A DNA stretch of 64,000 bases from Escherichia phage vB_EcoM_Schickermooser. The DNA lies in sequence record NC_048196.1; one strand, given 5' to 3'. This document shows, piece by piece, positions 17,452 to 50,652 of the stretch. Both the position numbers and the translations under genes were made by a program. The notes under the pieces were generated by a model. That model was given only the letters and a program-made list of their open reading frames with translations. It did not search any database and was not told where the DNA came from. Every line of letters starts with the position of its first letter. Position 1 is the first letter of the stretch.

Positions 17452-17458
17452 ACTTCAC

Positions 17459-21577: not shown

Positions 21578-21592
21578 CTTTTGTCTCCTCTA

Positions 21593-21862
21593 TTATTTAA
21601 GTGTAATACCAGTTACAGTCAATTCTACTTCCAAAAGCTTAGATGTGTTTTGGATTGCTACTAATTGTGCATGATGGTTTAGTTCTACAGCAGAATAATC
21701 ATTTTCCCCATCATCTACTTTTAAATAAACAATTACTTCACTAAGGTCTAAACCATTTTCGTCAAATGCATTTTCATAGACGAAAGTATCTCCTACATCC
21801 AAATCTTTAATGGTAAGGCATCGTTTATTTACTTTTTGCTCATCAATTTCGAAGTTTAACAC
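21593..21862 (-). CDS. hypothetical protein (89 aa), paralog of 22884..23228
   Basis: Shares DLxVGDTFxYxxAFDExGLD...VTxITLK with the 114-aa ORF. Confidence 0.5.
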   Translation of the reverse strand: MLNFEIDEQKVNKRCLTIKDLDVGDTFVYENAFDENGLDLSEVIVYLKVDDGENDYSAVELNHHAQLVAIQNTSKLLEVELTVTGITLK

Positions 21863-22091
21863 TTCTTCCTCCTAATGTTATCTCCGGTTTGTATATACGA
21901 AGAATTATAGCATTTTCATTTTCTTTGTCAACCCATTCTTCATAATCAGGCCATACATGAATCTCTACTCTACTTACAATATCTTCCATCCGCACAGTCC
22001 CAATGAAATATTCTTTGAGACTGCGCATAATGAAAGCTTCTCTCTCGCGCCAATAATTTTCTACGACTTGAGAGGCAAGCTCGTCGATCAT
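21843..22091 (-). CDS. hypothetical protein (82 aa)
   Basis: ORF overlapping both neighbours by a few codons. Confidence 0.45.
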   Translation of the reverse strand: MIDELASQVVENYWREREAFIMRSLKEYFIGTVRMEDIVSRVEIHVWPDYEEWVDKENENAIILRIYKPEITLGGRSVKLRN

Positions 22092-22882
22092 TTTTTAGCA
22101 CCTACTTTAACAACCCACTCTCCGAACTCTTCAGATAAGAGTTTGTCATAAAGCTCTGAATCTGTCAAGTCTAAATCTTTAATGCCAATAAAACCAACAT
22201 TGTCATAAGCATTTGCCAGTTCTTTCAGGAAGCTGAACTTCTCATTACCAACGCCAACCATGAACCAATAGATAGGCTTATTCTTATTCTCTTCAATAAG
22301 ACGACGAACAGCACTAGGATCACCATTCTCACCGTCTGTCTGGAAGAATACAACGCCAGGAGTAACATCAGCACCTGGTTCAGATACAGCTACAACTTTT
22401 TCACGCTCTACCGATACTGTTTCAGTTTTACCAAGCAGACGATTAAAGAAGCCTTTCTTTGGAGCCTCCTCTTGTACCACTTGTTTAGTGGTAACATATT
22501 TGGTAACAGTGCCAAAATACTCATCGTAGATATCTGCCATTACAGGGGCGTAATTTGTTCCACCTCCGATACGAACATTACGCATACATTTACCAACGTA
22601 GTCATCGTAAACGTCTGCTGTTGCTGGAGTAAGCTCTTGAGAACTCGTATTGAAGGCCCACATGTCAATTTGTTCATTATCGTCGAACAGCATACCAAAA
22701 GGAAGCAGTTTACCTACAAAATCACTCACTACCCCACGAGTATATAGACCATGCATACTACCAGAAATATCTAGAGCACATGCTACACGAAGAACAATCT
22801 TACCTTCGTTCAGGTTCTTATTCTTTTTCAGAGAGAAAGCAAGGTTTTCTTGACGTTTTTTCAGGCTGATTTTCTCGGACAT
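22088..22882 (-). CDS. von Willebrand factor A (vWA) domain protein, TerY-like (264 aa)
   Basis: MIDAS motif DISGSM after a TerD-like N-terminal KISLKK segment; sits within the Ter-like gene set. Confidence 0.7.
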   Translation of the reverse strand: MSEKISLKKRQENLAFSLKKNKNLNEGKIVLRVACALDISGSMHGLYTRGVVSDFVGKLLPFGMLFDDNEQIDMWAFNTSSQELTPATADVYDDYVGKCMRNVRIGGGTNYAPVMADIYDEYFGTVTKYVTTKQVVQEEAPKKGFFNRLLGKTETVSVEREKVVAVSEPGADVTPGVVFFQTDGENGDPSAVRRLIEENKNKPIYWFMVGVGNEKFSFLKELANAYDNVGFIGIKDLDLTDSELYDKLLSEEFGEWVVKVGAKK

Positions 22883-22883
22883 A

Positions 22884-23228
22884 TTATTTCTCCTTCTTAA
22901 GTGTAATATTGGTAACTTCTAAATCTACTTCCACCATATTTGTATCTGGTGGGATGCAATGAGTATAGCCTCGTTGTGCTAGTGATCCATTAATACAGAT
23001 CGCACTGTTTGTGGAATTTTTAATGAACACCAAGTTACGGTAGGTATCCAACCCTGCGTCTTCATAGGCATCATAATACATGAATGTGTCCCCTATGCCA
23101 AGGTCTTCGAAAGCAATAGGTAAATCCTGACACTTTTCTTCTTGAATATTGAATCTAAACACGCATACCTCCTCTACCAATTTTGAAGCCCAAATCGTAA
23201 GCTTCCTTAGTGATCTTTTGTAACTCAC
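22884..23228 (-). CDS. hypothetical protein (114 aa), paralog of 21593..21862
   Basis: Shares LGIGDTFMYYDAYEDAGLD...VTNITLK with the 89-aa ORF. Confidence 0.5.
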   Translation of the reverse strand: MSYKRSLRKLTIWASKLVEEVCVFRFNIQEEKCQDLPIAFEDLGIGDTFMYYDAYEDAGLDTYRNLVFIKNSTNSAICINGSLAQRGYTHCIPPDTNMVEVDLEVTNITLKKEK

Positions 23229-23718
23229 TTATAGGAAGTGTTACAAGAGGATCATCTTCTTCAATTTCCATCTTGTCATCTTCTGTTTCAATGAGAGTAT
23301 TATGCACTTTGTGATAAGGGTTGTCAACACGTTTAAACTTATTCTTTTCTGTGCTGAAAAAACAATCTGGATCTTCTTCGCCATCACCCCAACCTTGGTT
23401 AGGATCTCCGTCAGATTGTTCTGTAGGGATTTCACCTGTAAAATACTCTTCCAGCACCATAGCGATACCGTCCCTTGGATTCGAGGAATGCATTAAATCA
23501 CAAACCTTACCCCAATCCATAGCCCATTCGAACCGTTCACGAACGCCATTTTCATCCTCCTTTCCAGAGAAAACACAACCATAACTATCATAGTTGCCAT
23601 ACATCTCTTCAATAACAACACCATCCTTCAAAAGAAAGAGATAGCAAGGTGATCCGTCGAAAGAAGTAGAAAGGGCAGCTTTGCCCGATTCCTTACACAA
23701 AAAGCTAAAACAACCCAT
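23155..23718 (-). CDS. hypothetical acidic protein (187 aa)
   Basis: ORF with acidic Asp/Glu-rich C-terminal half; overlaps downstream ORF so start or stop may differ. Confidence 0.45.
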   Translation of the reverse strand: MGCFSFLCKESGKAALSTSFDGSPCYLFLLKDGVVIEEMYGNYDSYGCVFSGKEDENGVRERFEWAMDWGKVCDLMHSSNPRDGIAMVLEEYFTGEIPTEQSDGDPNQGWGDGEEDPDCFFSTEKNKFKRVDNPYHKVHNTLIETEDDKMEIEEDDPLVTLPISELQKITKEAYDLGFKIGRGGMRV

Positions 23719-23915
23719 TACAAACCCTCCTTCAGATTATCAAGAGCTACAGTGGTTTCACAAAATTCTCCATACGCTTTATGATGTTCTAGAAAAGCTT
23801 CAGGTCCACCCCAATCATTATCTTGTGTATTCCAACCATCAATAAAAGCATCTTCAATGATTGTGATCAGTTCCTGTCGAGTCAACGTAATGGTATCAGG
23901 TTTTGGATTATGCAT
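23718..23915 (-). CDS. hypothetical protein (65 aa)
   Basis: Small ORF in gene train. Confidence 0.4.
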   Translation of the reverse strand: MHNPKPDTITLTRQELITIIEDAFIDGWNTQDNDWGGPEAFLEHHKAYGEFCETTVALDNLKEGL

Positions 23916-24077
23916 CTTCTTTCTCCTCTAAAATATGAAACCCATAGCTACAATAGTCCTGAAAGGTTTCGTGTGCAAGATCTTCTATATCCTCTTGAGA
24001 CATATCATCTTCAATTTCGATATCCACAACCTCATTGCATCCACACCAAGCAGTTTCAATATTCACTCGTAAAGTTT

Positions 24078-24275
24078 TCATTCTTCTTCCTCATTGAAGT
24101 CAATATCTGCAAGGAGTTGAAATTTACGGAAGTTACGACAACCTTCATAAATATAACAATCACGACAAACTGCTAGAACACTTGGGGGATATATGCCTCC
24201 CATCGGTGCGAATCGTTTTTCGTCATCATAACGGACACCAATGTCTTCATCAATTATATAGATACGGATTCTCAT
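24078..24275 (-). CDS. hypothetical small Cys-containing protein (65 aa)
   Basis: Start overlaps TelA-like gene stop; CRDCYIYEGC motif. Confidence 0.4.
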   Translation of the reverse strand: MRIRIYIIDEDIGVRYDDEKRFAPMGGIYPPSVLAVCRDCYIYEGCRNFRKFQLLADIDFNEEEE

Positions 24276-25384
24276 TTACCAAGCCCTCGTTTCACAGCAG
24301 CTACCATCCCGTCTTCCAGAGATTGAACTTCATTAATATAATCAACACGAGCAGCACGGGCTTCCGTATTGATGCGGTTAGTTTCTTCCAACATCTTAAC
24401 CAAGTTTTCCTGATCGTGACGCAGAGTTTCAATATCCAACACTTGACGGTTAGCCAGTGCTGCTGCTTCGATCTGATTCTGTGTGGCAAGATCGCTACCC
24501 AGTTTAATTGCCAGGTTAAATTCATCAAGAACGTTATTCTGCGTCTCTGCTGCTTTCATTTGACGTAAGCTCTCGATATACATTGAGAAGTTAGCAGAGT
24601 AAGCAGGAATAACATTATTTACTATGTTACGCGCAGATCGCATTAAGCTTGCAGAAACTTTTTGCATACCTTGCACACGTGGTCCCATTTGGACACACAG
24701 TAGGCGCAATGCTTTTAAATCGGCAATACGAATCTCCAGAAGATCCAAAGTATCTCGGATCACTTGTCGCTGTTCTACTGCATCTTCTGGAAGAGCAGCC
24801 AAAGCTTGTTCTTCTTTTTCATAGGTTGCTGTTAGAAGCTGCATATCTCGGTTCAAACTTGCAGCATATTGTCCAATAGCTTGATGCAGTTTTTCAAGAT
24901 ATACCAAGGAATCTTCTTCTTTGCGAATATCCATTTGAAGGTTCTTTACCAACTCTTCAATACGGTTATTAACATTATCAAACTCCCCAAACAGGTCTTC
25001 TTTCATACCCATAACTTTTTTAATGAGTTTAGTAATACCTTTGCTTTGTTTAATAGAGTTTGGATCAAGTTGTTTTGCCTGTTTAATCAAAGCTGTGAGT
25101 CGTTCACTCATCTGATCGCCTTGATTACTACGTTGATGTTTTAATACCTCGGCATTCAAGGAACGCAAGGTTGTCCCTGCCTCTGCCCCGATCTCTTCGA
25201 TCTCTTGTCGGGTCATAGAAGGCAAAACTGGGACTTCTTGCGGTGCGGCTGGTGCATAAACAGGACTGGCATCTAATACGCTTGGAGCGAATACAGATTT
25301 ACTTGCATCTGTTGTTGCAGTGAATACACTCATTTCAGACTTCTTCTGACCACCAGTAGCTGCTTTTAAAAACGGACTTGTCAT
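24272..25384 (-). CDS. TelA-like (toxic anion resistance / KlaA family) protein (370 aa)
   Basis: Size, largely helical coiled-coil composition and position in a TerC/TerD/vWA neighbourhood; assignment partly contextual, no sharp motif recognised. Confidence 0.5.
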   Translation of the reverse strand: MTSPFLKAATGGQKKSEMSVFTATTDASKSVFAPSVLDASPVYAPAAPQEVPVLPSMTRQEIEEIGAEAGTTLRSLNAEVLKHQRSNQGDQMSERLTALIKQAKQLDPNSIKQSKGITKLIKKVMGMKEDLFGEFDNVNNRIEELVKNLQMDIRKEEDSLVYLEKLHQAIGQYAASLNRDMQLLTATYEKEEQALAALPEDAVEQRQVIRDTLDLLEIRIADLKALRLLCVQMGPRVQGMQKVSASLMRSARNIVNNVIPAYSANFSMYIESLRQMKAAETQNNVLDEFNLAIKLGSDLATQNQIEAAALANRQVLDIETLRHDQENLVKMLEETNRINTEARAARVDYINEVQSLEDGMVAAVKRGLGK

Positions 25385-25971
25385 TCTTCATTCTCCTCTT
25401 CTGCATCTCTTATGTATGGTGAAACACCGTATTCTTTAGCTACTTTAACCCAATCGTCCCATTTATACAACCATAATTTTCCTTCTGTTCCTTCTTTATC
25501 TGATTTTAACCACATATTAGGTTGCTTACCTGGATACATGCGATTAGGTTTACGATTATACCCTCTAACACATCTTGTCGCAAACCTATCCACCAAAACA
25601 AGAACATATTTATATTCATGGTTCAACGGCTCTTTGGAAGTAGCTTTAGGGTTTGCCCCTAATTCTGCTGCCAGTTTTTGCCAATGAGCACCGTGCCGAC
25701 TAAACTTACCCATACAACCATCAATAGCATGAGCAATTTCGTGCTTCATTGTATCCACGATCATATCTCTTGTAGAGTTCTTATGCAAGTGCCAATTTAC
25801 AACAACAATTTTATCTCGGTAGTTGCACCAACCGAAAGAGTTATTCACTTTGTTTCTAACGCAAGCTTTATATCCTGCTTCACGTAACATGTTGTAGTAA
25901 ACAGGAAAATCTTCTTTTATTTCCTGCATCACTTCCCACCACAAGAGTTGCAAGTCTCTCTCGGTATACAT
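25381..25971 (-). CDS. SprT-like zinc metallopeptidase-domain protein (196 aa)
   Basis: HExxH motif in MKHEIAHAIDGCMGKFSRHGAHWQKLAAELG, resembling SprT-like domains. Confidence 0.55.
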   Translation of the reverse strand: MYTERDLQLLWWEVMQEIKEDFPVYYNMLREAGYKACVRNKVNNSFGWCNYRDKIVVVNWHLHKNSTRDMIVDTMKHEIAHAIDGCMGKFSRHGAHWQKLAAELGANPKATSKEPLNHEYKYVLVLVDRFATRCVRGYNRKPNRMYPGKQPNMWLKSDKEGTEGKLWLYKWDDWVKVAKEYGVSPYIRDAEEENEE

Positions 25972-25974
25972 AAC

Positions 25975-26568
25975 TTACACCTTAAAAGTGAAATGCGTGG
26001 TCGTGGCTTCAAAATCAGGGCCAGATAAACGTGCACTGAAATCTGAAATATTTGTAATTAAAAAGCTTTTATGCATACCCAACACAGCCACGCTTTCAAT
26101 ATCTTCTACTAACATTTCAATCATGTTAGAAACATGGCTGAACGTAGTGTTTTGTTTTTTGATGGTGTAGAAAGAAAGATTCCCACCTGCTGTATAAGAT
26201 ACTTCTTCAAAATCTTTAATCGTATACTGTGTCCCATCAGTAAAGAAAATGGTAGCTTTATTAGTAGCACGTTTCTTGTTTTTTGGTCCTTTTTTACGTT
26301 TACTGCGAGTAGGAAAACCATTTGGGAATACCGTAGCTACAAATTCTTCAGGAGAAACCTCCTTACCGAAATCATAACCATAAGAAACAGCATCTATAAA
26401 CTCATCGTCCTCATTTTTAAAATAATGGAAATAGGGCCAATTTGAAAGATTATCAAGCATCTTATGCTCGTCCACAGCAGAGAATGTATCCCTCAAAGCG
26501 CGTGTGATTTGCAAAGCATTAGGCAACCTTTTAACACCTACGATGGAAGTACGAATAGAAATTGTCAT
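25975..26568 (-). CDS. hypothetical protein (197 aa)
   Basis: ORF in gene train. Confidence 0.5.
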   Translation of the reverse strand: MTISIRTSIVGVKRLPNALQITRALRDTFSAVDEHKMLDNLSNWPYFHYFKNEDDEFIDAVSYGYDFGKEVSPEEFVATVFPNGFPTRSKRKKGPKNKKRATNKATIFFTDGTQYTIKDFEEVSYTAGGNLSFYTIKKQNTTFSHVSNMIEMLVEDIESVAVLGMHKSFLITNISDFSARLSGPDFEATTTHFTFKV

Positions 26569-26582
26569 TGTTTTTCTCCTTA

Positions 26583-27020
26583 TTAACGTCGCTTGCTACG
26601 AGATGAACTCTTTTTACTTAAAGGGCTATTGTAAGATTTACGAGTTGTATAGCTACTATTTGTTTTAAAAGTTTGTCTCGGCTTTTCATAAGTTTTTATC
26701 TCTTGTTTAGGCTTACTATAAAAATTAGTTTTCGGTTTAGGTGTGTTATAATGTTTATTAATAATCGTTCTGTTATCGTTATAATCCCCGCCGCTACGAT
26801 TACTACTACCGCTCATCATATGTCCTAACAACATACCTGTAGCAAACTCACCAACACCGCTACTACTAGAACCGCCACCATTGTTGATAATAGTTGTATC
26901 TCCGTCAGATCCTTGTTGAGCGTATTGTTGAGGAGGTTGTTGATATTGTGTAGGATTTGTTTCATCCTCGCAAGCTGTTAAAAAGATACAACCAATTAAA
27001 ATCAGGGCTAGTTTTTTCAT
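26583..27020 (-). CDS. putative lipoprotein, Gly/Ser-rich with basic C-terminus (145 aa from internal start)
   Basis: MKKLALILIGCIFLTAC... signal peptide with lipobox LTAC; RBS GAGGAAAG upstream of internal ATG at 27020; ORF track's longer start at 27095 is less likely. Confidence 0.5.
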   Translation of the reverse strand: MKKLALILIGCIFLTACEDETNPTQYQQPPQQYAQQGSDGDTTIINNGGGSSSSGVGEFATGMLLGHMMSGSSNRSGGDYNDNRTIINKHYNTPKPKTNFYSKPKQEIKTYEKPRQTFKTNSSYTTRKSYNSPLSKKSSSRSKRR

Positions 27021-27207
27021 ATTTGCTTTCCTCGTTTTGACTATTAATACATCTGTGTTTGAAATCTCCAGAGAAGCAATAAAGCTGCTCTCCATCTCGG
27101 TATAAACTCACTTTACTGCCGTTGATTACGCTTGTCAATACAAAAATTACAACAAACAACCCTATTGCAAAACAAATATTTTCAAACACAACCAACAAGT
27201 ATTTCAT
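26962..27207 (-). CDS. hypothetical small membrane protein (81 aa)
   Basis: Hydrophobic segment FAIGLFVVIFVLTSV; overlaps lipoprotein start by about 59 nt, so extent uncertain. Confidence 0.35.
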   Translation of the reverse strand: MKYLLVVFENICFAIGLFVVIFVLTSVINGSKVSLYRDGEQLYCFSGDFKHRCINSQNEESKYEKTSPDFNWLYLFNSLRG

Positions 27208-27554
27208 TTTAAAAATACCTCATCATCAGTTTCATTATCCCAGAAGAACAAATCCCAACCATTAGGATCATTCCACTTGGCGGTTGGAGAAGTCCAAATT
27301 TGTTCGATATCAATATTCAAAACTTCGCCGTTTCGTTTTGAAACAGCCTTGGTTAATTCCCAACGAGATACAGGTTCTACCTCTCCTGAACCACTCCCAC
27401 AACAAGCTACTACATTAGGAGGAAGGTTAATTGGATCTTTGGTCACAATCATAACGCTTACCCCAGGGTAAACTTTTGAAAGATAATCTGAAACGTAATC
27501 AACATCACCAGGTAAATCCCAAACAAGTTTTTGAATTTCATCGAAATTGCTCAT
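27204..27554 (-). CDS. hypothetical protein (116 aa)
   Basis: ORF in gene train. Confidence 0.5.
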   Translation of the reverse strand: MSNFDEIQKLVWDLPGDVDYVSDYLSKVYPGVSVMIVTKDPINLPPNVVACCGSGSGEVEPVSRWELTKAVSKRNGEVLNIDIEQIWTSPTAKWNDPNGWDLFFWDNETDDEVFLK

Positions 27555-27596
27555 AAGTCTCTCCTATAAAATAGCCTCCCGAAGGAGGCTCATCTA

Positions 27597-28571
27597 TTAA
27601 ACAGCAGCTTGTTCTTTTTCAGGGAAGATAAAGCTTGCAATAACACCAAGAGCTAATGTGCCTAGAACAATCATCAGACTTACGTTAGGGGAAATATCAT
27701 GCGGAAGGAATGACCACTTGGCATGAAGTGTTTCACCGAACGGGTGATACATAAGTTTAGCACCAACAAACACCAGAACCACAGCAACAGCTTTCTCTAA
27801 GTGAACCAAATATTTCACAGCTACACTTAACACAAAGAAAAGTGCACGTAAACCAAGAACAGCCATCAGCATTGCAGAATAAACTAGCAGAGGTTCTTGT
27901 GTCACACCGATCACAGCCGGAACTGAATCAAAAGAGAAGACAATATCTGTAAGCTCAATAACAAACACACAAAGAAGAGCAGGAGTTGCATATTTAATAC
28001 CATTCTTAATGGTAATGAACTTTTCACCATCCAGTGCATTGTGCACAGGCAGAACTTTACCTACTAAACGAACAGCCCAATGCTTAGAGTAATCAATATC
28101 CTCTTCTTCGTCACAACCTTTGATGATAGCCACGGCAGACCAAGCTACAATCAAACCGAACAACACTTGGACCGACCAATGAAGGTTAAACAAAGCGGTC
28201 CCTGCTGCAACAAAAATACCTCGGAAAACAATGGCTCCTGCAATCCCCCAAAGTAAAATCTTATGTTGGAGATGTGTGCTCTTAATTCCAAAGCTTGCAA
28301 AAATTGCCATGAACACCATCAGGTTATCTACAGAAAGACTCTTTTCCAACACATAGCCGCTTAGGAAAAGCGCGGCAAACTCTTTACCATGTTCTACCCA
28401 AATGAATGCGTAATATCCTAAAGCTAAAGCAATCCAAAAAACAGACCAAAGCAAAGCAGATTTAATTCCAATTTCTTTATTCTCTTTATGACCAAAGAAA
28501 TCGATACCAATAGACAATGCTAAAATACCAACTAAAACAACTACATCAATAATTGGGAAACCAAGTTGCAT
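27597..28571 (-). CDS. TerC-family integral membrane protein (324 aa)
   Basis: Multiple TM helices; hallmark TerC blocks LEKSLSVDNLMVFMAIF and ELTDIVFSFDSVPAV. Confidence 0.8.
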   Translation of the reverse strand: MQLGFPIIDVVVLVGILALSIGIDFFGHKENKEIGIKSALLWSVFWIALALGYYAFIWVEHGKEFAALFLSGYVLEKSLSVDNLMVFMAIFASFGIKSTHLQHKILLWGIAGAIVFRGIFVAAGTALFNLHWSVQVLFGLIVAWSAVAIIKGCDEEEDIDYSKHWAVRLVGKVLPVHNALDGEKFITIKNGIKYATPALLCVFVIELTDIVFSFDSVPAVIGVTQEPLLVYSAMLMAVLGLRALFFVLSVAVKYLVHLEKAVAVVLVFVGAKLMYHPFGETLHAKWSFLPHDISPNVSLMIVLGTLALGVIASFIFPEKEQAAV

Positions 28572-28650
28572 TCTTTTCTCCTCTCTTTGCGGGGAACTAT
28601 TCCCCGCTTCATGTGATATATCTTACTCTTTTTAAGAACTATGTCAACAC

Positions 28651-28872
28651 TTATTTTGTTGAATGAGAGGAAAAGATTCCTCGTAATACAGCCAGAATAA
28701 ACGAAACACAAACCACGGTCCAGAAGGTTACTGGAACAGTGATATCTGCATGACCCATAACTTCAGCAACATAGTTGTAAGCCAGCAACAGTAACCAAGC
28801 TGGAATCAAACTAAGCATAAAAGCAATAACAAAAAAGCTTACCACTGCAACAATACCTGCAAAAACACCCAT
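28651..28872 (-). CDS. small 2-TM membrane protein (73 aa)
   Basis: Two hydrophobic helices (GIVAVVSFFVIAFMLSLIPAWLLLLAY; VTFWTVVCVSFILAVL). Confidence 0.5.
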   Translation of the reverse strand: MGVFAGIVAVVSFFVIAFMLSLIPAWLLLLAYNYVAEVMGHADITVPVTFWTVVCVSFILAVLRGIFSSHSTK

Positions 28873-28884
28873 ACTAATCTCCTC

Positions 28885-29370
28885 TTAAAGTTTATAAATA
28901 GTCACATCGTGACCAGCTTTTACTAAAGTTTCTTTGATCATGACTTCAATGATAGCCCAATTACCTCCAGCATGACCTGCACCTATCATAGGTAGACCAA
29001 TCTTATGTGCTGGCTGATCTCCTTTATCGTAATTGTGTAAGTCCATTGCCATAGCTGCAAGAGCATCATACAGCGCATCATAATCTAGTTGACGACCTTT
29101 ACTATTGTATCCATAACGATACTGTCCATAAAGGTTGTATACCATAGGGTTAGGATAATCTTCTGGTTCCCCTAAACTAAAAGAACCAAGCTTTTTCTGG
29201 TTTCCTGCTCCTGTAGCTAAATCTGCTTCGTATGCATATGGAAACGCATATTTTATTTGTGGGGCAATACCTGCCCCCATATTACACATACAGTTGCAAC
29301 AATGAGCAATAACAGTTACTTCACCTGTTTTAGCGGCATCAATAAGATTACCTGTTTTCATTTTAAGCAT
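28885..29370 (-). CDS. macro-domain (ADP-ribose binding/processing) protein (161 aa from internal start)
   Basis: LIDAAKTGEVTVIAHCCNCMCNMGAGIA and IGLPMIGAGHAGGNW resemble the two Gly-rich macro-domain motifs; RBS AAGGAG upstream of ATG at 29370; ORF-track start 29445 would overlap the upstream gene. Confidence 0.5.
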   Translation of the reverse strand: MLKMKTGNLIDAAKTGEVTVIAHCCNCMCNMGAGIAPQIKYAFPYAYEADLATGAGNQKKLGSFSLGEPEDYPNPMVYNLYGQYRYGYNSKGRQLDYDALYDALAAMAMDLHNYDKGDQPAHKIGLPMIGAGHAGGNWAIIEVMIKETLVKAGHDVTIYKL

Positions 29371-29383
29371 TTTTAGCTCCTTA

Positions 29384-30211
29384 TTACAGAATGTGTTGTT
29401 TTGTGTAACGATCCAAGAATTCAAAGTTTTCAGCATACTTTGCAATTCGATTGTAGCCTTCAGCTAAACAGCCGAAGAAAAGTTGTTCCACATAGTAGTG
29501 TGGCAATTGGCTAAGAATGATTTTGAAGTCTTCATGATTTTGGCCCATAAGATACTTAATAGGACGAACAAGGCACTGTGCATCACGTTCTTCATTAATC
29601 ATTTTAACAAACGCTTCTGGTGTATTAATGTAGTTAAAATTCAGTTTAGCTTCAGTATCTGCTTGATTACCTTCGTATTTTGCAAAATACAAGAAGTAAA
29701 CATCATTTTTAACTTGATTTTCATCAAGAATCTCAATCAGTTTGTCTTCATGCGTTCCGGTGATATTTACATCATCAATGAACACCAACTTCTTATCACC
29801 CCAGAATTCTTTGTTGCAGTAGAATGTATCCCCATCAATAAGTTTCTTACGACTAGCTTTATCCAAGAAGCCATAATCGTTAATATAACTAACTTTACGA
29901 TGAATAATATCCAGTTCTGCTGAACGACCTTGATCATATTGTGCTTGCAACATATTAAAGTAATTAATAAAATGATCTGTCATCATTGTTGCAGCATTAT
30001 GCACATGGTTATAAGGAGAAGGAATGATAACAAATTGTTCCCCAATATGTTTCATTGCCACTTGAGCAAAAAACTGAAGTGCCAATTCTTTACCCATACG
30101 ACGCGCAGCTTGGTTACTGCCAAATTTCAATTTTGAATAATCTTTGATATCAAAAGTAGCAGTTTCCAGGTCATCAAATTTATTTGCAAAAATTTGAGTT
30201 TGATTACGCAT
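29384..30211 (-). CDS. phosphoribosyltransferase (PRTase)-domain protein (275 aa)
   Basis: PRPP-binding-type motif KKLVFIDDVNITGTHEDK. Confidence 0.55.
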   Translation of the reverse strand: MRNQTQIFANKFDDLETATFDIKDYSKLKFGSNQAARRMGKELALQFFAQVAMKHIGEQFVIIPSPYNHVHNAATMMTDHFINYFNMLQAQYDQGRSAELDIIHRKVSYINDYGFLDKASRKKLIDGDTFYCNKEFWGDKKLVFIDDVNITGTHEDKLIEILDENQVKNDVYFLYFAKYEGNQADTEAKLNFNYINTPEAFVKMINEERDAQCLVRPIKYLMGQNHEDFKIILSQLPHYYVEQLFFGCLAEGYNRIAKYAENFEFLDRYTKQHIL

Positions 30212-30881
30212 TTACAATTTCTCCTCTTTTAAGTTTCTCTAGTAAGTCGTTAGGGTTCTTAATATGACAGAAGTTAATCCCTATGTCAACACATTTTCCA
30301 TCAAATTCTTCGCTGTCCCCAACATGTAAAATCTCTTCAGCCTTCAAAGGAATGCTTGAATATGTGGCGGTCCTAACAAAGAATCTAGGATCTGGTTTAC
30401 ACAACAGATGTTCGTCTGAAAAATGCATAAATTCAAAACAATTCCAACTGTCAAACATACAAGCACGACGCAAAATATCCCCAGATATGAAATTAGTATT
30501 GCTTTTAATACTAAGATCATATTTACCAGACAAGTATAGCAAACAAACTGGCAAATCTAAAGCAATATGTGGAGGAAATTTAAGAAACCATTGTTCACAC
30601 TCAAAACGCATTTGTGCAGATTCTACAGGGGTTAAACCTATCTTTCTTCCCAACATGTTCCATGCATATGCTACGCCTTCTGCACACCCATTTAGTGCAG
30701 CATTATCCATAATTTCTTTGGCATCTTTATATGCTTCTTTTGCGGCACGTTCAGACATTCTACCATATGTGGCAATAGTGTGCGTACGTGCATCTGCATA
30801 GTTTTGATTGGCAGAAATAAGAGTATTCCATACATCAAAAGAGATATGTTTTATTGTCATATTAGGCCCACCATGCATCAA
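30204..30881 (-). CDS. HAD-superfamily hydrolase-like protein (225 aa)
   Basis: Motif I-like ISFDVWNTL near N-terminus and C-terminal HVGDSEEFDGK; overlaps PRTase gene start by 8 nt. Confidence 0.45.
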   Translation of the reverse strand: MMHGGPNMTIKHISFDVWNTLISANQNYADARTHTIATYGRMSERAAKEAYKDAKEIMDNAALNGCAEGVAYAWNMLGRKIGLTPVESAQMRFECEQWFLKFPPHIALDLPVCLLYLSGKYDLSIKSNTNFISGDILRRACMFDSWNCFEFMHFSDEHLLCKPDPRFFVRTATYSSIPLKAEEILHVGDSEEFDGKCVDIGINFCHIKNPNDLLEKLKRGEIVNA

Positions 30882-31467
30882 GATTTAAGTTACTGTCTAC
30901 CACAACTTGCTCTATGTGGTAGCCTTTTATCTGTATCCCACTGTTCAAGAGCATACCATATGCCTCATTGAAACGCAACTTATCTTCTGCGGAATATAAG
31001 CGAGCATTGTAAAATCGGTAATCAAGTTCTTCAGCATTAGAAGAAATACGGAAGAAGTTTGTTTCTACTTCAGGATCACTTGCTGAAGTTTTAATGTGAA
31101 CTTCTCCGTAATTTTCTTTGCTTAGATCCATGAAAAGAACACAGGCAACATGTTTGAACATTCGTTCTAGTTTGTAACGAACAACATTGAAACCTGCATT
31201 CTCAAGTTTTTCTACACATTGCAACATTAACGTAGTGTCGAGATCGCTTTGATACTTTGTTAACATACGATCACGTTGAGACTTTGTATCCCGATGTAAA
31301 TCAATTGTTGTGCATTTGGCACCAATGATCTTAGCTGCTTTCATCAACTCTTCAGAACTAACGTTAGATAAAGTAAGATGAAAATGGGCTTTCCACACTT
31401 TTTGAGTAGGGACACCAAAAGATTTATCCCCACTATTCGGCATGTTAACTACTACACTATGTTGCAT
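30862..31467 (-). CDS. hypothetical protein (201 aa)
   Basis: ORF overlapping the HAD-like gene; no motif recognised. Confidence 0.5.
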   Translation of the reverse strand: MQHSVVVNMPNSGDKSFGVPTQKVWKAHFHLTLSNVSSEELMKAAKIIGAKCTTIDLHRDTKSQRDRMLTKYQSDLDTTLMLQCVEKLENAGFNVVRYKLERMFKHVACVLFMDLSKENYGEVHIKTSASDPEVETNFFRISSNAEELDYRFYNARLYSAEDKLRFNEAYGMLLNSGIQIKGYHIEQVVVDSNLNLDAWWA

Positions 31468-46919: not shown

Positions 46920-48380
46920 GTGCCAAAAATAGTCACTTGGGAACAATATAAAACAGATATAAAACAAGCTTATCAAGGTAAGTCTTGGACTGTTGTAGAT
47001 TATATTGAGCCGTGGAACGGCAATAAAACTAAACTCAGATGCATCTGTGCTCTGCATGGAGAATGGAAAACAACAAGCATAAATACCGCTAAACTAGGGA
47101 GGGGTTGTCCAGAATGCGGTAGGGAGATTATAAGTAAAGCAGTATCTATAAACAAATCAAAAACCTGGGAGCAATATAAAGAAGAAGTGCAAACCACTTA
47201 CAATCAGGCAGGTAAGTTTTGGACTGTTACAGGATGGCACGGAGAATGGAAAGGATGGAATACTAAACTGGTTTGTTGTTGTGCTTTACATGGGGAGTGG
47301 AGGTCTACTTCTATATCTTCTGCGAAAAACGGGAGTGGATGCAGGAAGTGTATGGGAGAAGCAAACAGAGAAAGAACATCGATTGCATGGGAGAAACATA
47401 AAGAAGAAGTAGAAGAAGCTTATAAAGAAAAACCCTGGATTGTTAGAGGCTATGTGGAACCGTGGAACGGTTCCCGCACTAAGTTGATTTGTGAGTGTAA
47501 GGTTCATGGTCAATGGTGCACTACCACTGTAAACAGTGCTAAACAAGGGACTGGATGCTACAGTTGTCAAAGAGAAATGACGAAACAAAGGAATACTATG
47601 GAGGATAAACAACATGTTGAAGATTTTATAAAAGCTTGTCCTGATAATGTAGAGCGTAAATATTATCGTAGCGATAGAGTAGATAGATTAGGTCGTCAGG
47701 TTTACTGGATTGTAGAATGTCCTATATGTGCAGAGGATGATTATTGTAAAGAAGGCTTATGCGATAATAAATTTGAGATGAAGATGAGTCATTTGAAAAG
47801 GGGTGGCCTTCCTTGCCGTTGTTCTAAATATTATCATTACACTCCTGAACAATGGGCCTACCGTATGACCAAAGCTTGCCAGGAACGAGGGGATCAATTT
47901 ATAGGATTCATTGATAAGGTAAGCAATAACAGCAAGTTTAAATATCTATGTAGGGAGCATGGAGAGCAAACGATCACACCTACCGATTATCTCAATGGGA
48001 AAGGTTGTCCAGGCTGTAAGAACAGAAATATGCAAGAATTTTACATCAATATTATTCTTGATGAGTACGGAGAAGACACGGGAGCTTACAAGTTGGGGAT
48101 TGCAAAGGACAGTGATATCAGGATCAAAGGGCAGAATGCAAACAACAATTACTCTATGCGCCGTATAGCATTGTTCGATCTGCCGTCCTACCAAGCTTGC
48201 AGGGCGTTAGAGAGTAAGCTAAAGTCTAAGACTGATCAGATTCTACCGTCTATTGGCTGTGTAGAACGCTTGCACATGAAAGATGGTCATAGTGAAACCT
48301 TCCTGCGCGAGGATTTGGCTATCGTCTTAAGTGCTATCAACCAAGCAGGTGGAATAATGAGAGAGGAGGAAACATGTTAG
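46920..48380 (+). CDS. Cys-rich tandem-repeat protein with possible C-terminal GIY-YIG-like nuclease region (486 aa)
   Basis: GTG start with AAAGGGGGAGG RBS; three ~70-aa repeats each with WEQYK...W(T/I)V...PWNG..TKL.C.C..HGEW..T...SAK.G.GC..C; C-terminal EFYINIIL...YKLGIAKD is loosely GIY-YIG-like. Confidence 0.6.
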   Translation: MPKIVTWEQYKTDIKQAYQGKSWTVVDYIEPWNGNKTKLRCICALHGEWKTTSINTAKLGRGCPECGREIISKAVSINKSKTWEQYKEEVQTTYNQAGKFWTVTGWHGEWKGWNTKLVCCCALHGEWRSTSISSAKNGSGCRKCMGEANRERTSIAWEKHKEEVEEAYKEKPWIVRGYVEPWNGSRTKLICECKVHGQWCTTTVNSAKQGTGCYSCQREMTKQRNTMEDKQHVEDFIKACPDNVERKYYRSDRVDRLGRQVYWIVECPICAEDDYCKEGLCDNKFEMKMSHLKRGGLPCRCSKYYHYTPEQWAYRMTKACQERGDQFIGFIDKVSNNSKFKYLCREHGEQTITPTDYLNGKGCPGCKNRNMQEFYINIILDEYGEDTGAYKLGIAKDSDIRIKGQNANNNYSMRRIALFDLPSYQACRALESKLKSKTDQILPSIGCVERLHMKDGHSETFLREDLAIVLSAINQAGGIMREEETC

Positions 48381-48739
48381 TTGACGTTCAAATTATGCGC
48401 AACGAAAGAATGGACTTCTTTGAAGCAGTAGAGAAACATCTGATCAGATGGGACTATGAATTTGTTCCTGCTGGATGTGGACCAGTAGAGCATTTAGCGG
48501 AAGACGACGATGTATACATGATCATTCGTCAAGTGTACCAGACAGACCAGTGTGAAGAAACTCCCGAACTGATTTTGTTTGAGTGTAAAGATCTTGCAAA
48601 ATATTTTGACTATGGCGGAAAAGAGGGTCATAATCTCTCCAGATACAATAAACGTCTACTTATCTTAGACTACATGCGGAACAACAAACACAAACTCATC
48701 GACGCAGACGCAGTTTATGGCTACTGGTGGATGGACTAA
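48374..48739 (+). CDS. hypothetical protein (121 aa)
   Basis: GAGGAGG RBS. Confidence 0.5.
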   Translation: MLVDVQIMRNERMDFFEAVEKHLIRWDYEFVPAGCGPVEHLAEDDDVYMIIRQVYQTDQCEETPELILFECKDLAKYFDYGGKEGHNLSRYNKRLLILDYMRNNKHKLIDADAVYGYWWMD

Positions 48740-48752
48740 CAAAGGAGAAACT

Positions 48753-48932
48753 ATGGCACGTTTAGCAGATCATGAAATCTTTAAACCTATTCTGAACCAC
48801 TATGATGAACTTAAAGCAGTGTTGGATTGTTATAGAGAGGATGAAGAACGTTTGGAAGTCAATCTTAAGATAGTTCTGATGAAAGCTTTTCAAGACGGGC
48901 AAGCTAAAGTTTTAGAAGGCATGAAAAAATGA
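48753..48932 (+). CDS. hypothetical protein (59 aa)
   Basis: AGGAG RBS before ATG at 48753. Confidence 0.45.
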   Translation: MARLADHEIFKPILNHYDELKAVLDCYREDEERLEVNLKIVLMKAFQDGQAKVLEGMKK

Positions 48933-49471
48933 GAATAACTGATGAATATGTATTCTTCTTTTCACATAAAGATGTGTTTAGTAATTGGTATATTGCACCC
49001 TTTACAGAAACTGAACCAGGTTACAATGAGACTTTCTGTTGTGTTGAGCAATATATGATGTGGCGTAAGGCTTTGCTGTTCAAGGATCATGCGATTGCAG
49101 CAGCTATCCTTGATCACTCAACTATACGTGACAACGAGAGGAAACAAGCATACTACAAACGTATGGGTCGAGCGGTATCTGGTTTTAATAATAATATGTG
49201 GGAAGAGAACCGTGAGCGTATTGTTATGCGGGGCTTATGCTTGAAATATGTACAGAATCCAGATTTGTATGCAGACTTACACCTTTACCAATACAAAACG
49301 TTTGTTGAAGCAAGTCCTTACGATAAGGTTTACGGTATTGGAATGGGAATGTATGAACCAGGGGTGCTAAACCCTGCTACCTGGAAAGGGCAGAATCTTT
49401 TAGGCAAATATCATAATAAACTGATCGAAATACTTTTCCCAGACAAAATACCGCAAAGACGATATTTGTGA
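48929..49471 (+). CDS. NADAR (YbiA-like) domain protein (180 aa)
   Basis: Hallmark blocks FFFSHKDVFSNWY..PF, FCCVEQYMMWRKALLF and EASPYDKVYGIG as in YbiA/NADAR N-glycosidases. Confidence 0.75.
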   Translation: MRITDEYVFFFSHKDVFSNWYIAPFTETEPGYNETFCCVEQYMMWRKALLFKDHAIAAAILDHSTIRDNERKQAYYKRMGRAVSGFNNNMWEENRERIVMRGLCLKYVQNPDLYADLHLYQYKTFVEASPYDKVYGIGMGMYEPGVLNPATWKGQNLLGKYHNKLIEILFPDKIPQRRYL

Positions 49472-49526: not shown

Positions 49527-49562
49527 AGGCTCCTACAGCACCGTAGAGAGCCTGTTATTTTG
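49527..49562 (+). terminator. rho-independent terminator after NADAR gene
   Basis: GGCTCCTAC-AGCACC-GTAGAGAGCC stem followed by TGTTATTTTG. Confidence 0.55.
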
Positions 49563-49715
49563 TCCTATACAAACCCTTGTCTTTTTCAGTTTGCATCACT
49601 AGGATTCGATCTGAGTGGGTTCCTGAAGGTTTACCAATAAGATTAAAGGTTATATCAAATTCCCACTATCTTTTATCTCAAAAATCCCTCAAATTATTTA
49701 AACTTTTTAAGAATT

Positions 49716-49900
49716 TACAAAAGTGAAAGTTGAAAACCAAAATTTAAAGTTTAGGAAAATTATCTTAAAATGTTAGATACAAAACAAAACTCAAAAGTCA
49801 AGGAAAATTTTAAAAATTTTGCGCGCCCACAGTATTTAAAGTTTTTTTGCTTTTACAAAAATGAAAGTACAAAAGCAAAATTTAAAGTTTACAAAAATTT
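49716..49900. repeat. degenerate A-rich tandem repeats (~68-bp period, about 3 copies)
   Basis: TACAAAAGTGAAAGTTGAAAACCAAAATTTAAAGTTTAGGAAAATT recurs as TACAAAAATGAAAGTACAAAAGCAAAATTTAAAGTTTACAAAAATT, with a partial copy between. Confidence 0.6.
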
Positions 49901-49941
49901 TTATGCAGGTGAAAATGAGAAGAGTTCTCATATGGAAATGC

Positions 49942-50021
49942 AAATGATAATGATTCGCATTTAAGTTTATAAATGAGAATGATTGTCATTTACCTTATTA
50001 AATAAGAATCAATCTCATTTA
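49942..50021. repeat. three 22-bp iteron-like direct repeats at 29-bp spacing
   Basis: AAATGATAATGATTCGCATTTA (49942), AAATGAGAATGATTGTCATTTA (49971), AAATAAGAATCAATCTCATTTA (50000); each is an internal imperfect palindrome; first copy loosely resembles a Fur box. Confidence 0.65.
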
Positions 50022-50280
50022 GAGAATGACGCGCAGGGGCGGTGTTTGTCTCGCGCTCCCGTGTCCCCTCGCCATGTAATAAGAATAACAGATCCAGCCA
50101 GGAAAGCAAGCGATTATTTTATCTTTACATTTCTTTACAAATATATAGCGCCCAGCCTACCGGCGATCAACCTTCCAACCAGTGCCCCCTGGTATGTTAG
50201 CCCCGCCTTTACGCCGTGGGGGTGGCGCTTCCTCTTCTGTATGTAAAACAGTATAAGCCCGATCCCTGGGCTTGTCAAGA

Positions 50281-50544
50281 TTATTTTTTGTTTTCTTGCC
50301 AGGATAGGACACCTAACCAAAAATACATATCGCCCCGCGCCCCTGGTGGTATCTTGCTTTCCCCGCCGCCACTGCAAGCCCATAGATAACCATTTGCGAA
50401 CGTATCAAAATGATCTATTTCTTCCACCCTATGATCGCCCAGGTTGAGAACTGTTTCAACCTTTAAGCCCGTTGCGCTTGCTACCTGGTGCACCGTGCCG
50501 CCTTGCCAGCCCAATGAGTGCATAAGGTGTAATGTAGTTGTCAT
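50281..50544 (-). CDS. possible ORF (87 aa) in GC-rich intergenic segment
   Basis: Only candidate ORF in an otherwise non-coding GC-rich stretch; no convincing RBS; may not be a gene. Confidence 0.2.
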   Translation of the reverse strand: MTTTLHLMHSLGWQGGTVHQVASATGLKVETVLNLGDHRVEEIDHFDTFANGYLWACSGGGESKIPPGARGDMYFWLGVLSWQENKK

Positions 50545-50652
50545 GGTATCGCCCTTTCTTTGTTGTGCGCCCTGGTTGGCGCGGTAGAAAGATAATAGCC
50601 CTTTTCTTTATATATAGCAAGCAAAAAGAAAATAAAAAAGATTGAAAAATGG

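What the first reader, a model, noticed from the sequence alone, without database searches (positions are those of the whole stretch)
48929..49471. NADAR (YbiA-like) domain gene; with the macro-domain gene it points to ADP-ribosylation-related counter-defence
The 180-aa ORF carries the hallmark NADAR blocks (FSNWY, EQYMMWRKA, EASPYDKVYGIG). NADAR enzymes have been reported to remove ADP-ribose from guanine bases in DNA and so can reverse DarT-type toxin modifications. A macro-domain protein, another ADP-ribose-processing fold, is encoded at 28885..29370. Together they suggest this phage may counter ADP-ribosylating defence systems such as DarTG, or processes an ADP-ribose-derived metabolite made by the adjacent PRTase/HAD enzymes.
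Basis: partly seen in the sequence, partly recalled or inferred. Interest (0 to 1): 0.7.

Follow-up and report, generated by a model that had tools for sequence, protein, structure and literature searches.

The report
Phage NADAR enzyme, likely anti-DarT1 factor

Summary
The ORF at 48929..49471 (+, 180 aa) is real and is a clear NADAR protein. It scores Pfam PF08719 at E=3e-35. Its AlphaFold model (pLDDT 95) matches the Phytophthora NADAR:ADP-ribose structure 8BAU. All ADP-ribose-contacting and catalytic residues are present (E40, K47, K77, R81, W91, R95, E127, D132).

The window is a Phapecoctavirus (phAPEC8-like) coliphage. The protein is 56% identical to bas60_0111 of phage Bas60 (PaulScherrer, sister genus Justusliebigvirus) and lies in the same gene order. 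I take bas60_0111 to be AdfN^Bas60. That protein was shown in 2025 to neutralise the DarT1 toxin and to rescue phages from DarTG1, but not from DarTG2.

The gene is under strong purifying selection (dN/dS 0.04-0.14).

The macro-domain gene (28885..29370, minus strand) is also real. It belongs to the TARG1/DarG/SCO6735 class and is 39% identical to T4 Tk.4 (AdfM, an anti-DarTG2 factor). It lies 19.5 kb away on the other strand, inside a Ter-like cluster. The PRTase and HAD genes flank the macro gene, not the NADAR gene.

Verdict: observation confirmed and interpretation supported. This is a new member of a known kind, of low-to-moderate interest.

The parts
48929..49471 (+). NADAR-domain gene (180 aa), probable AdfN-type DNA ADP-ribosylglycohydrolase
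   Evidence: ORF. Pfam PF08719 at E=3e-35. AF2 pLDDT 95.3. Foldseek to 8BAU at E=1.5e-9, TM 0.78. 56% identical to Bas60 bas60_0111.
49046..49048 (+). Codon for E40, equivalent to PnNADAR E43, E. coli C7 NADAR E88 and T4 AdfN E36 (distal-ribose contact, catalytic)
   Evidence: Alignments. Invariant in 65 homologues. Residue roles from PMC11543638 and PMC11825919.
49067..49069 (+). Codon for K47, equivalent to PnNADAR K50, E. coli C7 NADAR K95 and T4 AdfN K43 (phosphate/adenine contact, essential)
   Evidence: residue roles.
49307..49309 (+). Codon for E127, equivalent to PnNADAR E125. This is the Glu of YbiA-type and stand-alone NADARs; T4-type AdfN has His here.
   Evidence: residue roles.
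49527..49563 (+). Terminator-like hairpin plus U-run that closes the transcription unit after the NADAR gene
   Evidence: Fold of -23.5 kcal/mol, z=-3.8. Annotated as a rho-independent terminator at the equivalent site of phage ASO2A. My simple consensus scan missed it.
48753..48932 (+). Small upstream ORF (59 aa from the ATG at 48753, unknown function). Its stop overlaps the NADAR start (ATGA), which suggests translational coupling.
   Evidence: Sequence; phrog_22330; annotated in ASO2A and SF1-1.
48374..48739 (+). 121-aa ORF of unknown function in the same gene string
   Evidence: phrog_24465. Absent from the Justusliebigvirus locus.
46920..48380 (+). CapR-domain endonuclease-like gene (486 aa, five repeats). 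It is the conserved upstream neighbour of the NADAR gene in both genera.
   Evidence: Pfam PF21817 at E=1.4e-28 with 5 matched stretches; phrog_681; gene order.
28885..29370 (-). Macro-domain gene (161 aa from the ATG at 29370) of the TARG1/DarG/SCO6735 class. It is unlinked to the NADAR gene and is a candidate AdfM-type companion.
   Evidence: 39% identical to T4 Tk.4 at E=7e-21. Model pLDDT 93. Foldseek hits to TARG1, BT1257 and DarG.

Best explanation
The gene encodes a catalytically intact, stand-alone NADAR ADP-ribosylglycohydrolase. During infection it removes ADP-ribose that a host DarT1-type toxin has attached to the N2 of guanine in phage DNA, which restores replication. In other words it is an orphan, antitoxin-like anti-DarT factor (AdfN) of the Bas60 type. 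Shown here: the gene, the NADAR domain and fold, a complete active site, the likely counterpart relationship and shared gene order with the Bas60 protein, and purifying selection. Taken from the literature: the activity of AdfN^Bas60 and of NADARs in general. Inferred: that this 56%-identical protein has the same substrate and the same role in vivo.
For: The NADAR profile matches strongly. The AF2 model (pLDDT 95.3) matches PnNADAR:ADPr 8BAU (TM 0.78) and YbiA 2B3W. Every residue that contacts ADP-ribose in 8BAU, or that is needed in E. coli C7 NADAR, has a conserved or conservative counterpart: E40, K47, K77 (the Lys needed for in-vivo DarT1 rescue), G80, R81, V83, F86, W91, R95, E127, D132 and Y135. 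The window is a Phapecoctavirus. Bas60 is phage PaulScherrer of the sister genus Justusliebigvirus, and its only detected NADAR gene, bas60_0111, is 56% identical over 172 aa at E=3e-67. The gene order ATPase, CapR endonuclease, NADAR, then about 1 kb without genes is shared. AdfN^Bas60 neutralised DarT1 in E. coli and restored RB69, T5 and Bas25 on DarTG1 hosts, but did not restore T5 on a DarTG2 host (PMC11825919). dN/dS among five Phapecoctavirus alleles is 0.04-0.14, and no key residue varies. About 69 phage records carry a copy that is at least 80% identical, roughly as many as match the surrounding locus at 90% or more. The gene sits among small genes of unknown function. None of the plus-strand ORFs of 83 aa or more scanned between 42.7 and 62.7 kb has an ADP-ribosyltransferase or riboflavin domain. 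It is therefore an orphan, as described for AdfN.
Against: No experiment exists on this protein or on any Phapecoctavirus. In-vitro guanine-ADPr hydrolysis is common to all NADAR families, but rescue from DarT1 in vivo is not: YbiA and T4 gp30.3 failed in uninfected cells (PMC11125620). 44% of residues differ from AdfN^Bas60, and codons 51-92, next to the ADP-ribose site, are unusually variable. I could not see the paper's accession table. Equating AdfN^Bas60 with bas60_0111 therefore rests on it being the only NADAR homologue found in that genome and on its BASEL annotation. NCBIfam's TIGR02464, named for a riboflavin-intermediate N-glycosidase, also matches above its cut-off.
Confidence: 0.68

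Rival explanations
1. It is a broad-spectrum remover of ADP-ribose from nucleic-acid bases. On this view DarT1 is only one of its targets. It would also clear cytidine- and guanosine-linked ADP-ribose from DNA and RNA placed by other toxins (pierisin/ScARP-like enzymes, or defence ADP-ribosyltransferases not yet described).
For: In sequence the protein is closest to stand-alone NADARs (43-48% to bacterial ones, E=2e-12 to PnNADAR) rather than to DarG1 or T4-type NADARs. [quoted passage not shown] All NADARs tested remove guanosine-ADPr from RNA (PMC11833690). The AdfN authors raise the same possibility.
Against: No cytidine- or RNA-guanine-ADP-ribosylating anti-phage system is known in E. coli. 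This rival overlaps the best explanation rather than excluding it.
Confidence: 0.15
2. It is a hydrolase of small ADP-ribose-derived molecules. It would degrade soluble signals or toxins (cADPR-like or other N-glycosidic ADPr derivatives) made by host NAD+-based immunity, rather than repair DNA.
For: Iyer et al. [quoted passage not shown] Homologues of the window's macro gene lie beside NAMPT/NUDIX or Prs/NAPRTase genes in other phage contigs.
Against: That prediction predates the biochemistry. Every NADAR tested since then acts on base-linked ADPr in nucleic acids. The likely Bas60 counterpart rescues phages from a DNA-modifying toxin. The NADAR gene itself has no NAD-metabolism neighbours.
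Confidence: 0.08
3. It is a YbiA-type housekeeping N-glycosidase that destroys reactive early intermediates of riboflavin synthesis. This is what the GenBank labels 'GTP cyclohydrolase II' and 'N-glycosidase' imply.
For: TIGR02464 'riboflavin biosynthesis intermediates N-glycosidase' matches at 115 bits against a cut-off of 73.7. The protein has the Glu (E127) typical of YbiA-type proteins.
Against: Identity to E. coli YbiA is only 29% over 96 aa. A phmmer search of the PDB did not retrieve YbiA (2B3W) even at E<=1. No riboflavin genes lie nearby. The 'GTP cyclohydrolase II' labels probably derive from RibA-fusion proteins; one record's note reads 'Uncharacterized domain COG3236 / GTP cyclohydrolase II' and another cites a riboflavin biosynthesis model. 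The AdfN authors place the Bas60 type outside the YbiA group.
Confidence: 0.05
4. The NADAR and macro proteins work in one pathway with the PRTase and HAD enzymes, processing a ribosylated metabolite of the phage's Ter-like system.
For: The macro gene is flanked by PRTase_3 and HAD genes within a cluster that also holds TerD, vWA-TerF, TelA and TerC. This arrangement is conserved in Justusliebigvirus. Phage Ter systems with PRTase and HAD 'signal biosynthesis' genes have been described (PMC7824862).
Against: The NADAR gene is 19.5 kb away, on the other strand and in a different transcription unit. T4 has homologues of both proteins without any Ter, PRTase or HAD genes near the two loci examined. 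Nothing links the NADAR gene to that cluster. At most, this idea concerns the macro protein.
Confidence: 0.03

Closest known systems
AdfN^Bas60 (anti-DarT factor NADAR of phage Bas60/PaulScherrer; taken to be bas60_0111, QXV83846.1; Johannesman et al. 2025, PMC11825919)
   Same: It is 56% identical over the full NADAR domain. Both are about 180 aa with no N-terminal extension. They share the Glu-Lys-Glu active-site set, a lineage-specific insertion after helix 2, and the position after the ATPase and CapR-endonuclease genes and before a stretch of about 1 kb without genes. Both phages belong to the subfamily Stephanstirmvirinae.
   Different: The genus differs (Phapecoctavirus against Justusliebigvirus). 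Two small ORFs are inserted between the endonuclease and NADAR genes. 44% of residues differ. The window protein is untested.
AdfN^T4 (gp30.3), the T4-type 'phage NADAR' family
   Same: Both are orphan phage NADARs. The equivalents of the catalytic Glu and Lys are conserved (T4 E36 and K43, window E40 and K47). The proposed role is the same.
   Different: No BLAST-detectable similarity exists between them. T4 has His where the window protein has E127. T4 AdfN needs a T-even context to work and is closest to DarG1. These look like separate acquisitions.
DarG1, the DarT1-associated NADAR antitoxin (E. coli C7; G. lovleyi 8BAT)
   Same: The fold and the reaction (hydrolysis of guanine-N2-ADP-ribose) are the same. 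The equivalents of E88, K95 and K115 are present.
   Different: The window protein has no DarT partner and no N-terminal extension. It has Glu rather than the DarG1-specific Asp arrangement. The sequences are too far apart for phmmer or Foldseek to list 8BAT.
Stand-alone 'NADAR' family (P. nicotianae NADAR 8BAU; bacterial NADARs of Burkholderia, Kofleriaceae and others)
   Same: This family gives the best structural and sequence match: 8BAU at E=2e-12 and TM 0.78, and bacterial homologues at 43-48% identity. It shares the EASPYD and WKGxNLLG motifs.
   Different: These are cellular or prophage proteins of unknown biological role. No toxin neighbour was seen in the two bacterial contexts I inspected.
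E. coli YbiA (riboflavin-intermediate N-glycosidase, 2B3W)
   Same: It belongs to the same superfamily and fold (TM 0.66-0.70), and both match the TIGR02464 domain model.
   Different: Identity is 29% over 96 aa. YbiA is a housekeeping gene of a LexA-controlled operon and failed to rescue cells from DarT1 in vivo.
For the macro gene: T4 Tk.4 (AdfM) and Streptomyces SCO6735 (5E3B)
   Same: It is 39% identical to Tk.4 and its best PDB sequence hit is SCO6735. All three have Gln (GQY, TQF, GQH) at the position of the DarG catalytic Lys80. SCO6735 Q85 is essential, and that enzyme removes thymidine-linked ADPr and rescues cells from DarT. Tk.4 is required for T4 growth on DarTG2 hosts.
   Different: The window macro lies inside a Ter/PRTase/HAD cluster. 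SCO6735 K34 and K89 are not conserved in it. Its Pfam Macro score is just below the cut-off. It is untested.

Membership tests
NADAR superfamily (Pfam PF08719) | Profile match above the curated threshold across the whole domain | tested here: met
   122.3 bits against 35.1, E=3e-35, profile positions 3-154 of 163.
NADAR superfamily (Pfam PF08719) | NADAR alpha+beta fold | tested here: met
   AF2 pLDDT 95.3 and pTM 0.88. The only significant Foldseek hits in the PDB are 8BAU (TM 0.78) and YbiA 2B3W.
NADAR superfamily (Pfam PF08719) | Catalytic and ADPr-binding residues (PnNADAR E43, K50, R79, W89, R93, E125, D130) | tested here: met
   The window equivalents are E40, K47, R81, W91, R95, E127 and D132. 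E40, K47, W91, E127 and D132 are invariant in 65 homologues.
NADAR superfamily (Pfam PF08719) | Hydrolysis of guanine-linked ADP-ribose | not testable with these tools
   This needs an enzyme assay.
AdfN, Bas60 type (phage orphan anti-DarT1 NADAR) | Counterpart of the tested protein (sequence plus gene order) | tested here: met
   56% identity at E=3e-67. A single NADAR hit per genome. Shared neighbours.
AdfN, Bas60 type (phage orphan anti-DarT1 NADAR) | Orphan status: no cognate DarT or other ADP-ribosyltransferase gene beside it | tested here: met
   The neighbours are an AAA ATPase, a CapR endonuclease and small ORFs of unknown function.
AdfN, Bas60 type (phage orphan anti-DarT1 NADAR) | Neutralises DarT1 and restores plating on DarTG1 hosts but not on DarTG2 hosts | not testable with these tools
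   Shown only for AdfN^Bas60, AdfN^Bas32 and AdfN^T4.
T4-type phage NADAR (AdfN^T4 family) | His replacing the conserved Glu, and sequence relatedness to gp30.3 | tested here: not met
   The window protein has E127 and shows no BLAST similarity to gp30.3.
DarG1 antitoxin NADAR | Encoded next to DarT1, with an N-terminal extension | tested here: not met
   No DarT gene is nearby. The protein is 180 aa and the NADAR domain starts at residue 11.
YbiA-type N-glycosidase | Match to TIGR02464 above its cut-off | tested here: met
   115.2 bits against 73.7. This is a domain-level model that also covers non-YbiA NADARs.
YbiA-type N-glycosidase | Close similarity to E. coli YbiA, or linkage to riboflavin genes | tested here: not met
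   29% identity over 96 aa. 2B3W was not retrieved by phmmer at E<=1. No rib genes lie nearby.
AdfM / DarG2-like macrodomain (for the 28885..29370 gene) | Macro fold of the TARG1/DarG (ALC1-like) class | tested here: met
   Model pLDDT 93. Top Foldseek hits are TARG1, BT1257, DarG, Poa1p and SCO6735. NCBIfam antitoxin_DarG matches at E=1.7e-8 over the macro part only, far below its full-length cut-off.
AdfM / DarG2-like macrodomain (for the 28885..29370 gene) | Catalytic Lys of DarG (K80) | tested here: not met
   Gln occupies this position, as in SCO6735 (Q85, essential) and T4 Tk.4. This fits the Gln-type subgroup, which still cleaves thymidine-ADPr.
AdfM / DarG2-like macrodomain (for the 28885..29370 gene) | Protection from DarTG2 | not testable with these tools
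   Shown for T4 Tk.4 and the chimallivirus AdfM only.

The most novel reading that the evidence does not exclude
The NADAR of Phapecoctavirus and Justusliebigvirus is not a DarT1 specialist. It would be a general eraser of base-linked ADP-ribose (guanine and cytosine, on DNA and RNA). Together with the Gln-type macro enzyme, which acts on thymine, it would give these phages cover against every known base-ADP-ribosylating toxin. The unusually variable segment at codons 51-92, beside the substrate cleft, would then record an ongoing arms race with such toxins.
Probability: 0.2. Interest if true: 0.5.

Novelty: new member of a known kind. Interest (0 to 1): 0.27.

Why it matters
The result gives a specific, testable function to a gene that most Phapecoctavirus GenBank records label 'hypothetical protein' or, wrongly, 'GTP cyclohydrolase II'. 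These phages are used in therapy and biocontrol work on pathogenic E. coli, Shigella and Klebsiella. Knowing that they probably carry anti-DarTG1 and possibly anti-DarTG2 enzymes helps to predict host range on strains with DarTG systems. It does not open a new biological question. The mechanism and the phage-encoded orphan-antitoxin idea were published in 2023-2025.

Tried and rejected
- I looked for tRNA genes (none) and Rfam families (none credible) in the gene-poor stretch downstream.
- I tried to read the accession table of the AdfN paper, but no supplement is held.
- I tested whether the window protein is related to T4 AdfN. It shows no BLAST similarity, so it is not a T4-type phage NADAR.
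- I checked whether NARP3 or other NAD+-reconstitution work involves NADAR. It does not.
- I looked for an ADP-ribosyltransferase, DarT, riboflavin or NAD-metabolism gene near the NADAR gene. Pfam scans found none in the upstream ATPase, endonuclease and two small ORFs, in the minus-strand ORF at 50281..50544, or in 19 plus-strand ORFs of 83 aa or more between 42.7 and 62.7 kb.
- I inspected the genomic context of the closest bacterial NADARs, in Burkholderia and Kofleriaceae. No conserved partner or toxin was present, so this was uninformative.
- I searched the paper library for any work linking Phapecoctavirus to NADAR or DarTG. None was found.
- My simple terminator scan missed the hairpin after the gene. 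Folding and the annotation of a relative support it.

Full report
**1. Observation**

The ORF 48929..49471 (+) exists as described: ATG start, 180 aa, TGA stop. The three quoted motifs are at residues 17-21, 40-48 and 127-138. The protein matches Pfam NADAR (PF08719) at E=3e-35, with 122 bits against a cut-off of 35, over nearly the whole profile. It also matches TIGR02464 above its cut-off and phrog_1017.

The start codon overlaps the stop of a small upstream ORF (ATGA). A hairpin followed by a U-run lies 56 nt downstream of the stop codon (-23.5 kcal/mol, z=-3.8). A close relative annotates a terminator at the same site.

**2. What the window is**

An 8-kb stretch around the gene is 99% identical to several Escherichia phages of the genus Phapecoctavirus (phAPEC8-like, subfamily Stephanstirmvirinae). 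Their records label this gene 'hypothetical protein' or 'GTP cyclohydrolase II'. The second label is wrong. It probably derives from RibA-NADAR fusion proteins; one record's note reads 'Uncharacterized domain COG3236 / GTP cyclohydrolase II' and another cites a riboflavin biosynthesis model.

**3. The protein**

An AlphaFold2 model built on 65 homologues has pLDDT 95.3. Its only significant PDB matches are the Phytophthora nicotianae NADAR:ADP-ribose complex 8BAU (E=1.5e-9, TM 0.78) and E. coli YbiA.

I mapped the HMMER alignment to 8BAU onto the residue roles described by Schuller et al. 2023. The correspondences are:

| Window residue | PnNADAR residue | Note |
|---|---|---|
| E40 | E43 | |
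| K47 | K50 | |
| K77 | K75 | Equivalent to E. coli C7 K115, needed for DarT1 rescue in vivo |
| G80, R81 | G78, R79 | |
| V83 | V81 | |
| F86 | Y84 | |
| N88 | D86 | |
| W91 | W89 | |
| R95 | R93 | |
| E127 | E125 | |
| D132 | D130 | |
| Y135 | W133 | |

E40, K47, W91, E127 and D132 are invariant across 65 homologues. The active site is therefore complete.

The Glu at position 127 sets the protein apart from T4-type phage NADARs, which have His there. The lack of an N-terminal extension and of a DarT neighbour sets it apart from DarG1. Identity to E. coli YbiA is only 29% over 96 aa. Stand-alone bacterial NADARs are 43-48% identical. 'YbiA-like' is therefore only loosely correct.

**4. Link to a characterised protein**

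Johannesman et al. (Nat Commun 2025, PMC11825919) showed that phage NADARs act as orphan antitoxin-like anti-DarT factors (AdfN). Besides T4 gp30.3, they tested AdfN^Bas32 and AdfN^Bas60. Both neutralised DarT1 in E. coli. Both restored RB69, T5 and Bas25 on DarTG1 hosts. Neither restored T5 on a DarTG2 host.

Bas60-62 are the phi92-like phages, now classified as Justusliebigvirus, the sister genus of Phapecoctavirus. Bas60 is phage PaulScherrer. Its single detected NADAR gene, bas60_0111, is annotated 'putative YbiA-like N-glycosidase'.

The window protein is 56% identical to bas60_0111 over 172 residues (E=3e-67). The two share a lineage-specific insertion. Both occupy the same position: AAA ATPase, then CapR-domain endonuclease, then NADAR, then a gene-poor, repeat-bearing stretch of about 1 kb. 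The Phapecoctavirus locus has two extra small ORFs before the NADAR gene. I conclude that the window gene is the Phapecoctavirus counterpart of AdfN^Bas60. The paper's accession table was not available to me, so equating AdfN^Bas60 with bas60_0111 is an inference.

**5. Evidence of function in this lineage**

Five Phapecoctavirus alleles give pairwise dN/dS of 0.04-0.14 with dS of 0.2-1.2. Variable residues cluster in codons 51-92, where pN/pS is about 0.3 and pS about 0.75. None of the key residues varies.

About 69 phage records carry a copy that is at least 80% identical. That is about as many as match the surrounding locus at 90% or more, so the gene is close to universal in the genus. The wider family occurs in 717 phage records, mostly large myoviruses. 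This agrees with the survey of Iyer et al. 2022.

**6. Surroundings**

The NADAR gene lies in a plus-strand array of small genes of unknown function. Neither an ADP-ribosyltransferase gene nor any riboflavin or NAD-metabolism gene is nearby. The window holds one NADAR gene and one macro gene.

**7. The macro gene**

Its Pfam score is marginal (20.8 against 22). Other evidence is clear:

- Sequence hits to SCO6735 (5E3B, E=4e-12), BT1257, the DarG macrodomain and TARG1.
- phrog_335 at E=2.4e-54.
- A pLDDT-93 model whose top structural matches are TARG1, BT1257, DarG, Poa1p and SCO6735.

These place it in the TARG1/DarG class. It has Gln where DarG has its catalytic Lys80. The same is true of SCO6735, whose Q85 is essential; that enzyme removes thymidine-linked ADP-ribose and rescues cells from DarT.

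The protein is 39% identical to T4 Tk.4 (E=7e-21). A 2025 preprint named Tk.4 AdfM, because T4 needs it to grow on DarTG2 hosts. Chimallivirus AdfM is a second example. T4 therefore already provides the precedent of one phage carrying both a NADAR (anti-DarTG1) and a macro (anti-DarTG2) factor.

However, the window's macro gene sits inside a minus-strand Ter-like cluster. In window order this runs TerD, vWA-TerF, TelA, SprT-like, TerC, macro, PRTase_3, HAD, an ORF with no family match (30862..31467), NrdG and NrdD, with several other unassigned ORFs between the named genes. The cluster is conserved in Justusliebigvirus and resembles the phage Ter systems described by Iyer et al. 2021. Homologous macro genes in other phage contigs lie beside NAMPT/NUDIX or Prs/NAPRTase genes. 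A metabolite-processing role for the macro protein therefore cannot be excluded. Nothing ties the NADAR gene to that cluster.

**8. Mechanism and rivals**

Most likely (about 0.68), the protein is an AdfN-type enzyme that removes DarT1-placed ADP-ribose from guanine in phage DNA. The rivals are:

- A broader base-de-ADP-ribosylase, also active on cytosine and on RNA (0.15).
- A hydrolase of soluble ADPr-derived signals (0.08).
- A YbiA-type riboflavin-intermediate N-glycosidase (0.05).
- A shared pathway with the PRTase and HAD enzymes (0.03).

The main uncertainty is that in-vitro activity is general among NADARs, whereas in-vivo DarT1 rescue is not.

**9. Novelty and score**

The enzyme family, its chemistry, its use by phages as an orphan antitoxin, and the activity of the sister-genus protein are all published. 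No paper in the searchable library links Phapecoctavirus to NADAR or DarTG. The window gene is thus an untested new member of a known kind. I give 0.27.

Noticed in passing
window 49650-50020: An AT-rich stretch (22-26% GC) lies just after the NADAR terminator and carries iteron-like repeats. There are four 19-nt palindromic units (AAATGAGAAnnnTTCTCAT) at exactly 29-nt spacing (49913, 49942, 49971, 50000), a 72-nt repeat present twice and a 29-nt repeat present three times. A GC-rich block (about 50% GC, 50030-50560) follows. The equivalent place is annotated 'repeat_region' in phage muut, and tuntematon has two 'repeat_region' features within the matched 8-kb stretch. This could be a replication origin or a regulatory region.
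   Followed up: partly
window 20975-31467 (minus strand): The phage carries a Ter-like stress-response cluster. Named genes, in window order, are TerD, vWA-TerF-like, TelA, SprT-like, TerC, macro, ComF-like PRTase_3 and HAD hydrolase, ending next to NrdG/NrdD; several ORFs with no family match lie among them. The arrangement is conserved in Justusliebigvirus PHB05.
   Followed up: partly
window 48929-49471 and GenBank relatives: Many Phapecoctavirus and Justusliebigvirus records annotate this NADAR gene as 'GTP cyclohydrolase II'. One record calls it 'DNA methyltransferase'. These are annotation errors, probably arising from RibA-NADAR fusion proteins.
   Followed up: yes
window 49079-49204 (NADAR codons 51-92): The NADAR gene is much more diverged between Phapecoctavirus genomes (dS 0.5-0.8 against ASO2A and others) than the 8-kb region overall (96.5% nucleotide identity). 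Amino-acid changes are concentrated in codons 51-92, where synonymous differences are near saturation. This points to allele exchange or relaxed or diversifying pressure on the segment next to the ADP-ribose site.
   Followed up: partly
window 46920-48380: The upstream neighbour is a 486-aa protein with five CapR-homology (zinc-ribbon-like) repeats and an endonuclease-type PHROG match. Its length varies widely among relatives (CDS of about 1.0 to 1.46 kb). It always directly precedes the NADAR gene string, which would fit a mobile or homing-type element.
   Followed up: no
L017:1-4911 and L019:4001-7865: Homologues of the window's macro protein in other large phage contigs lie beside NAD+-salvage genes. 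One contig has NUDIX, NAMPT and two tandem macro genes. Another has DUF4326, a Prs-like PRTase and NAPRTase, an arrangement resembling the described NAD+-reconstitution pathways.
   Followed up: no
window 16507-18445 (minus strand): Two adjacent glycosyltransferase-like genes (weak Glyco_trans_1 hits) sit among the DNA replication genes (primase-helicase, family A DNA polymerase). They might relate to DNA or surface modification.
   Followed up: no
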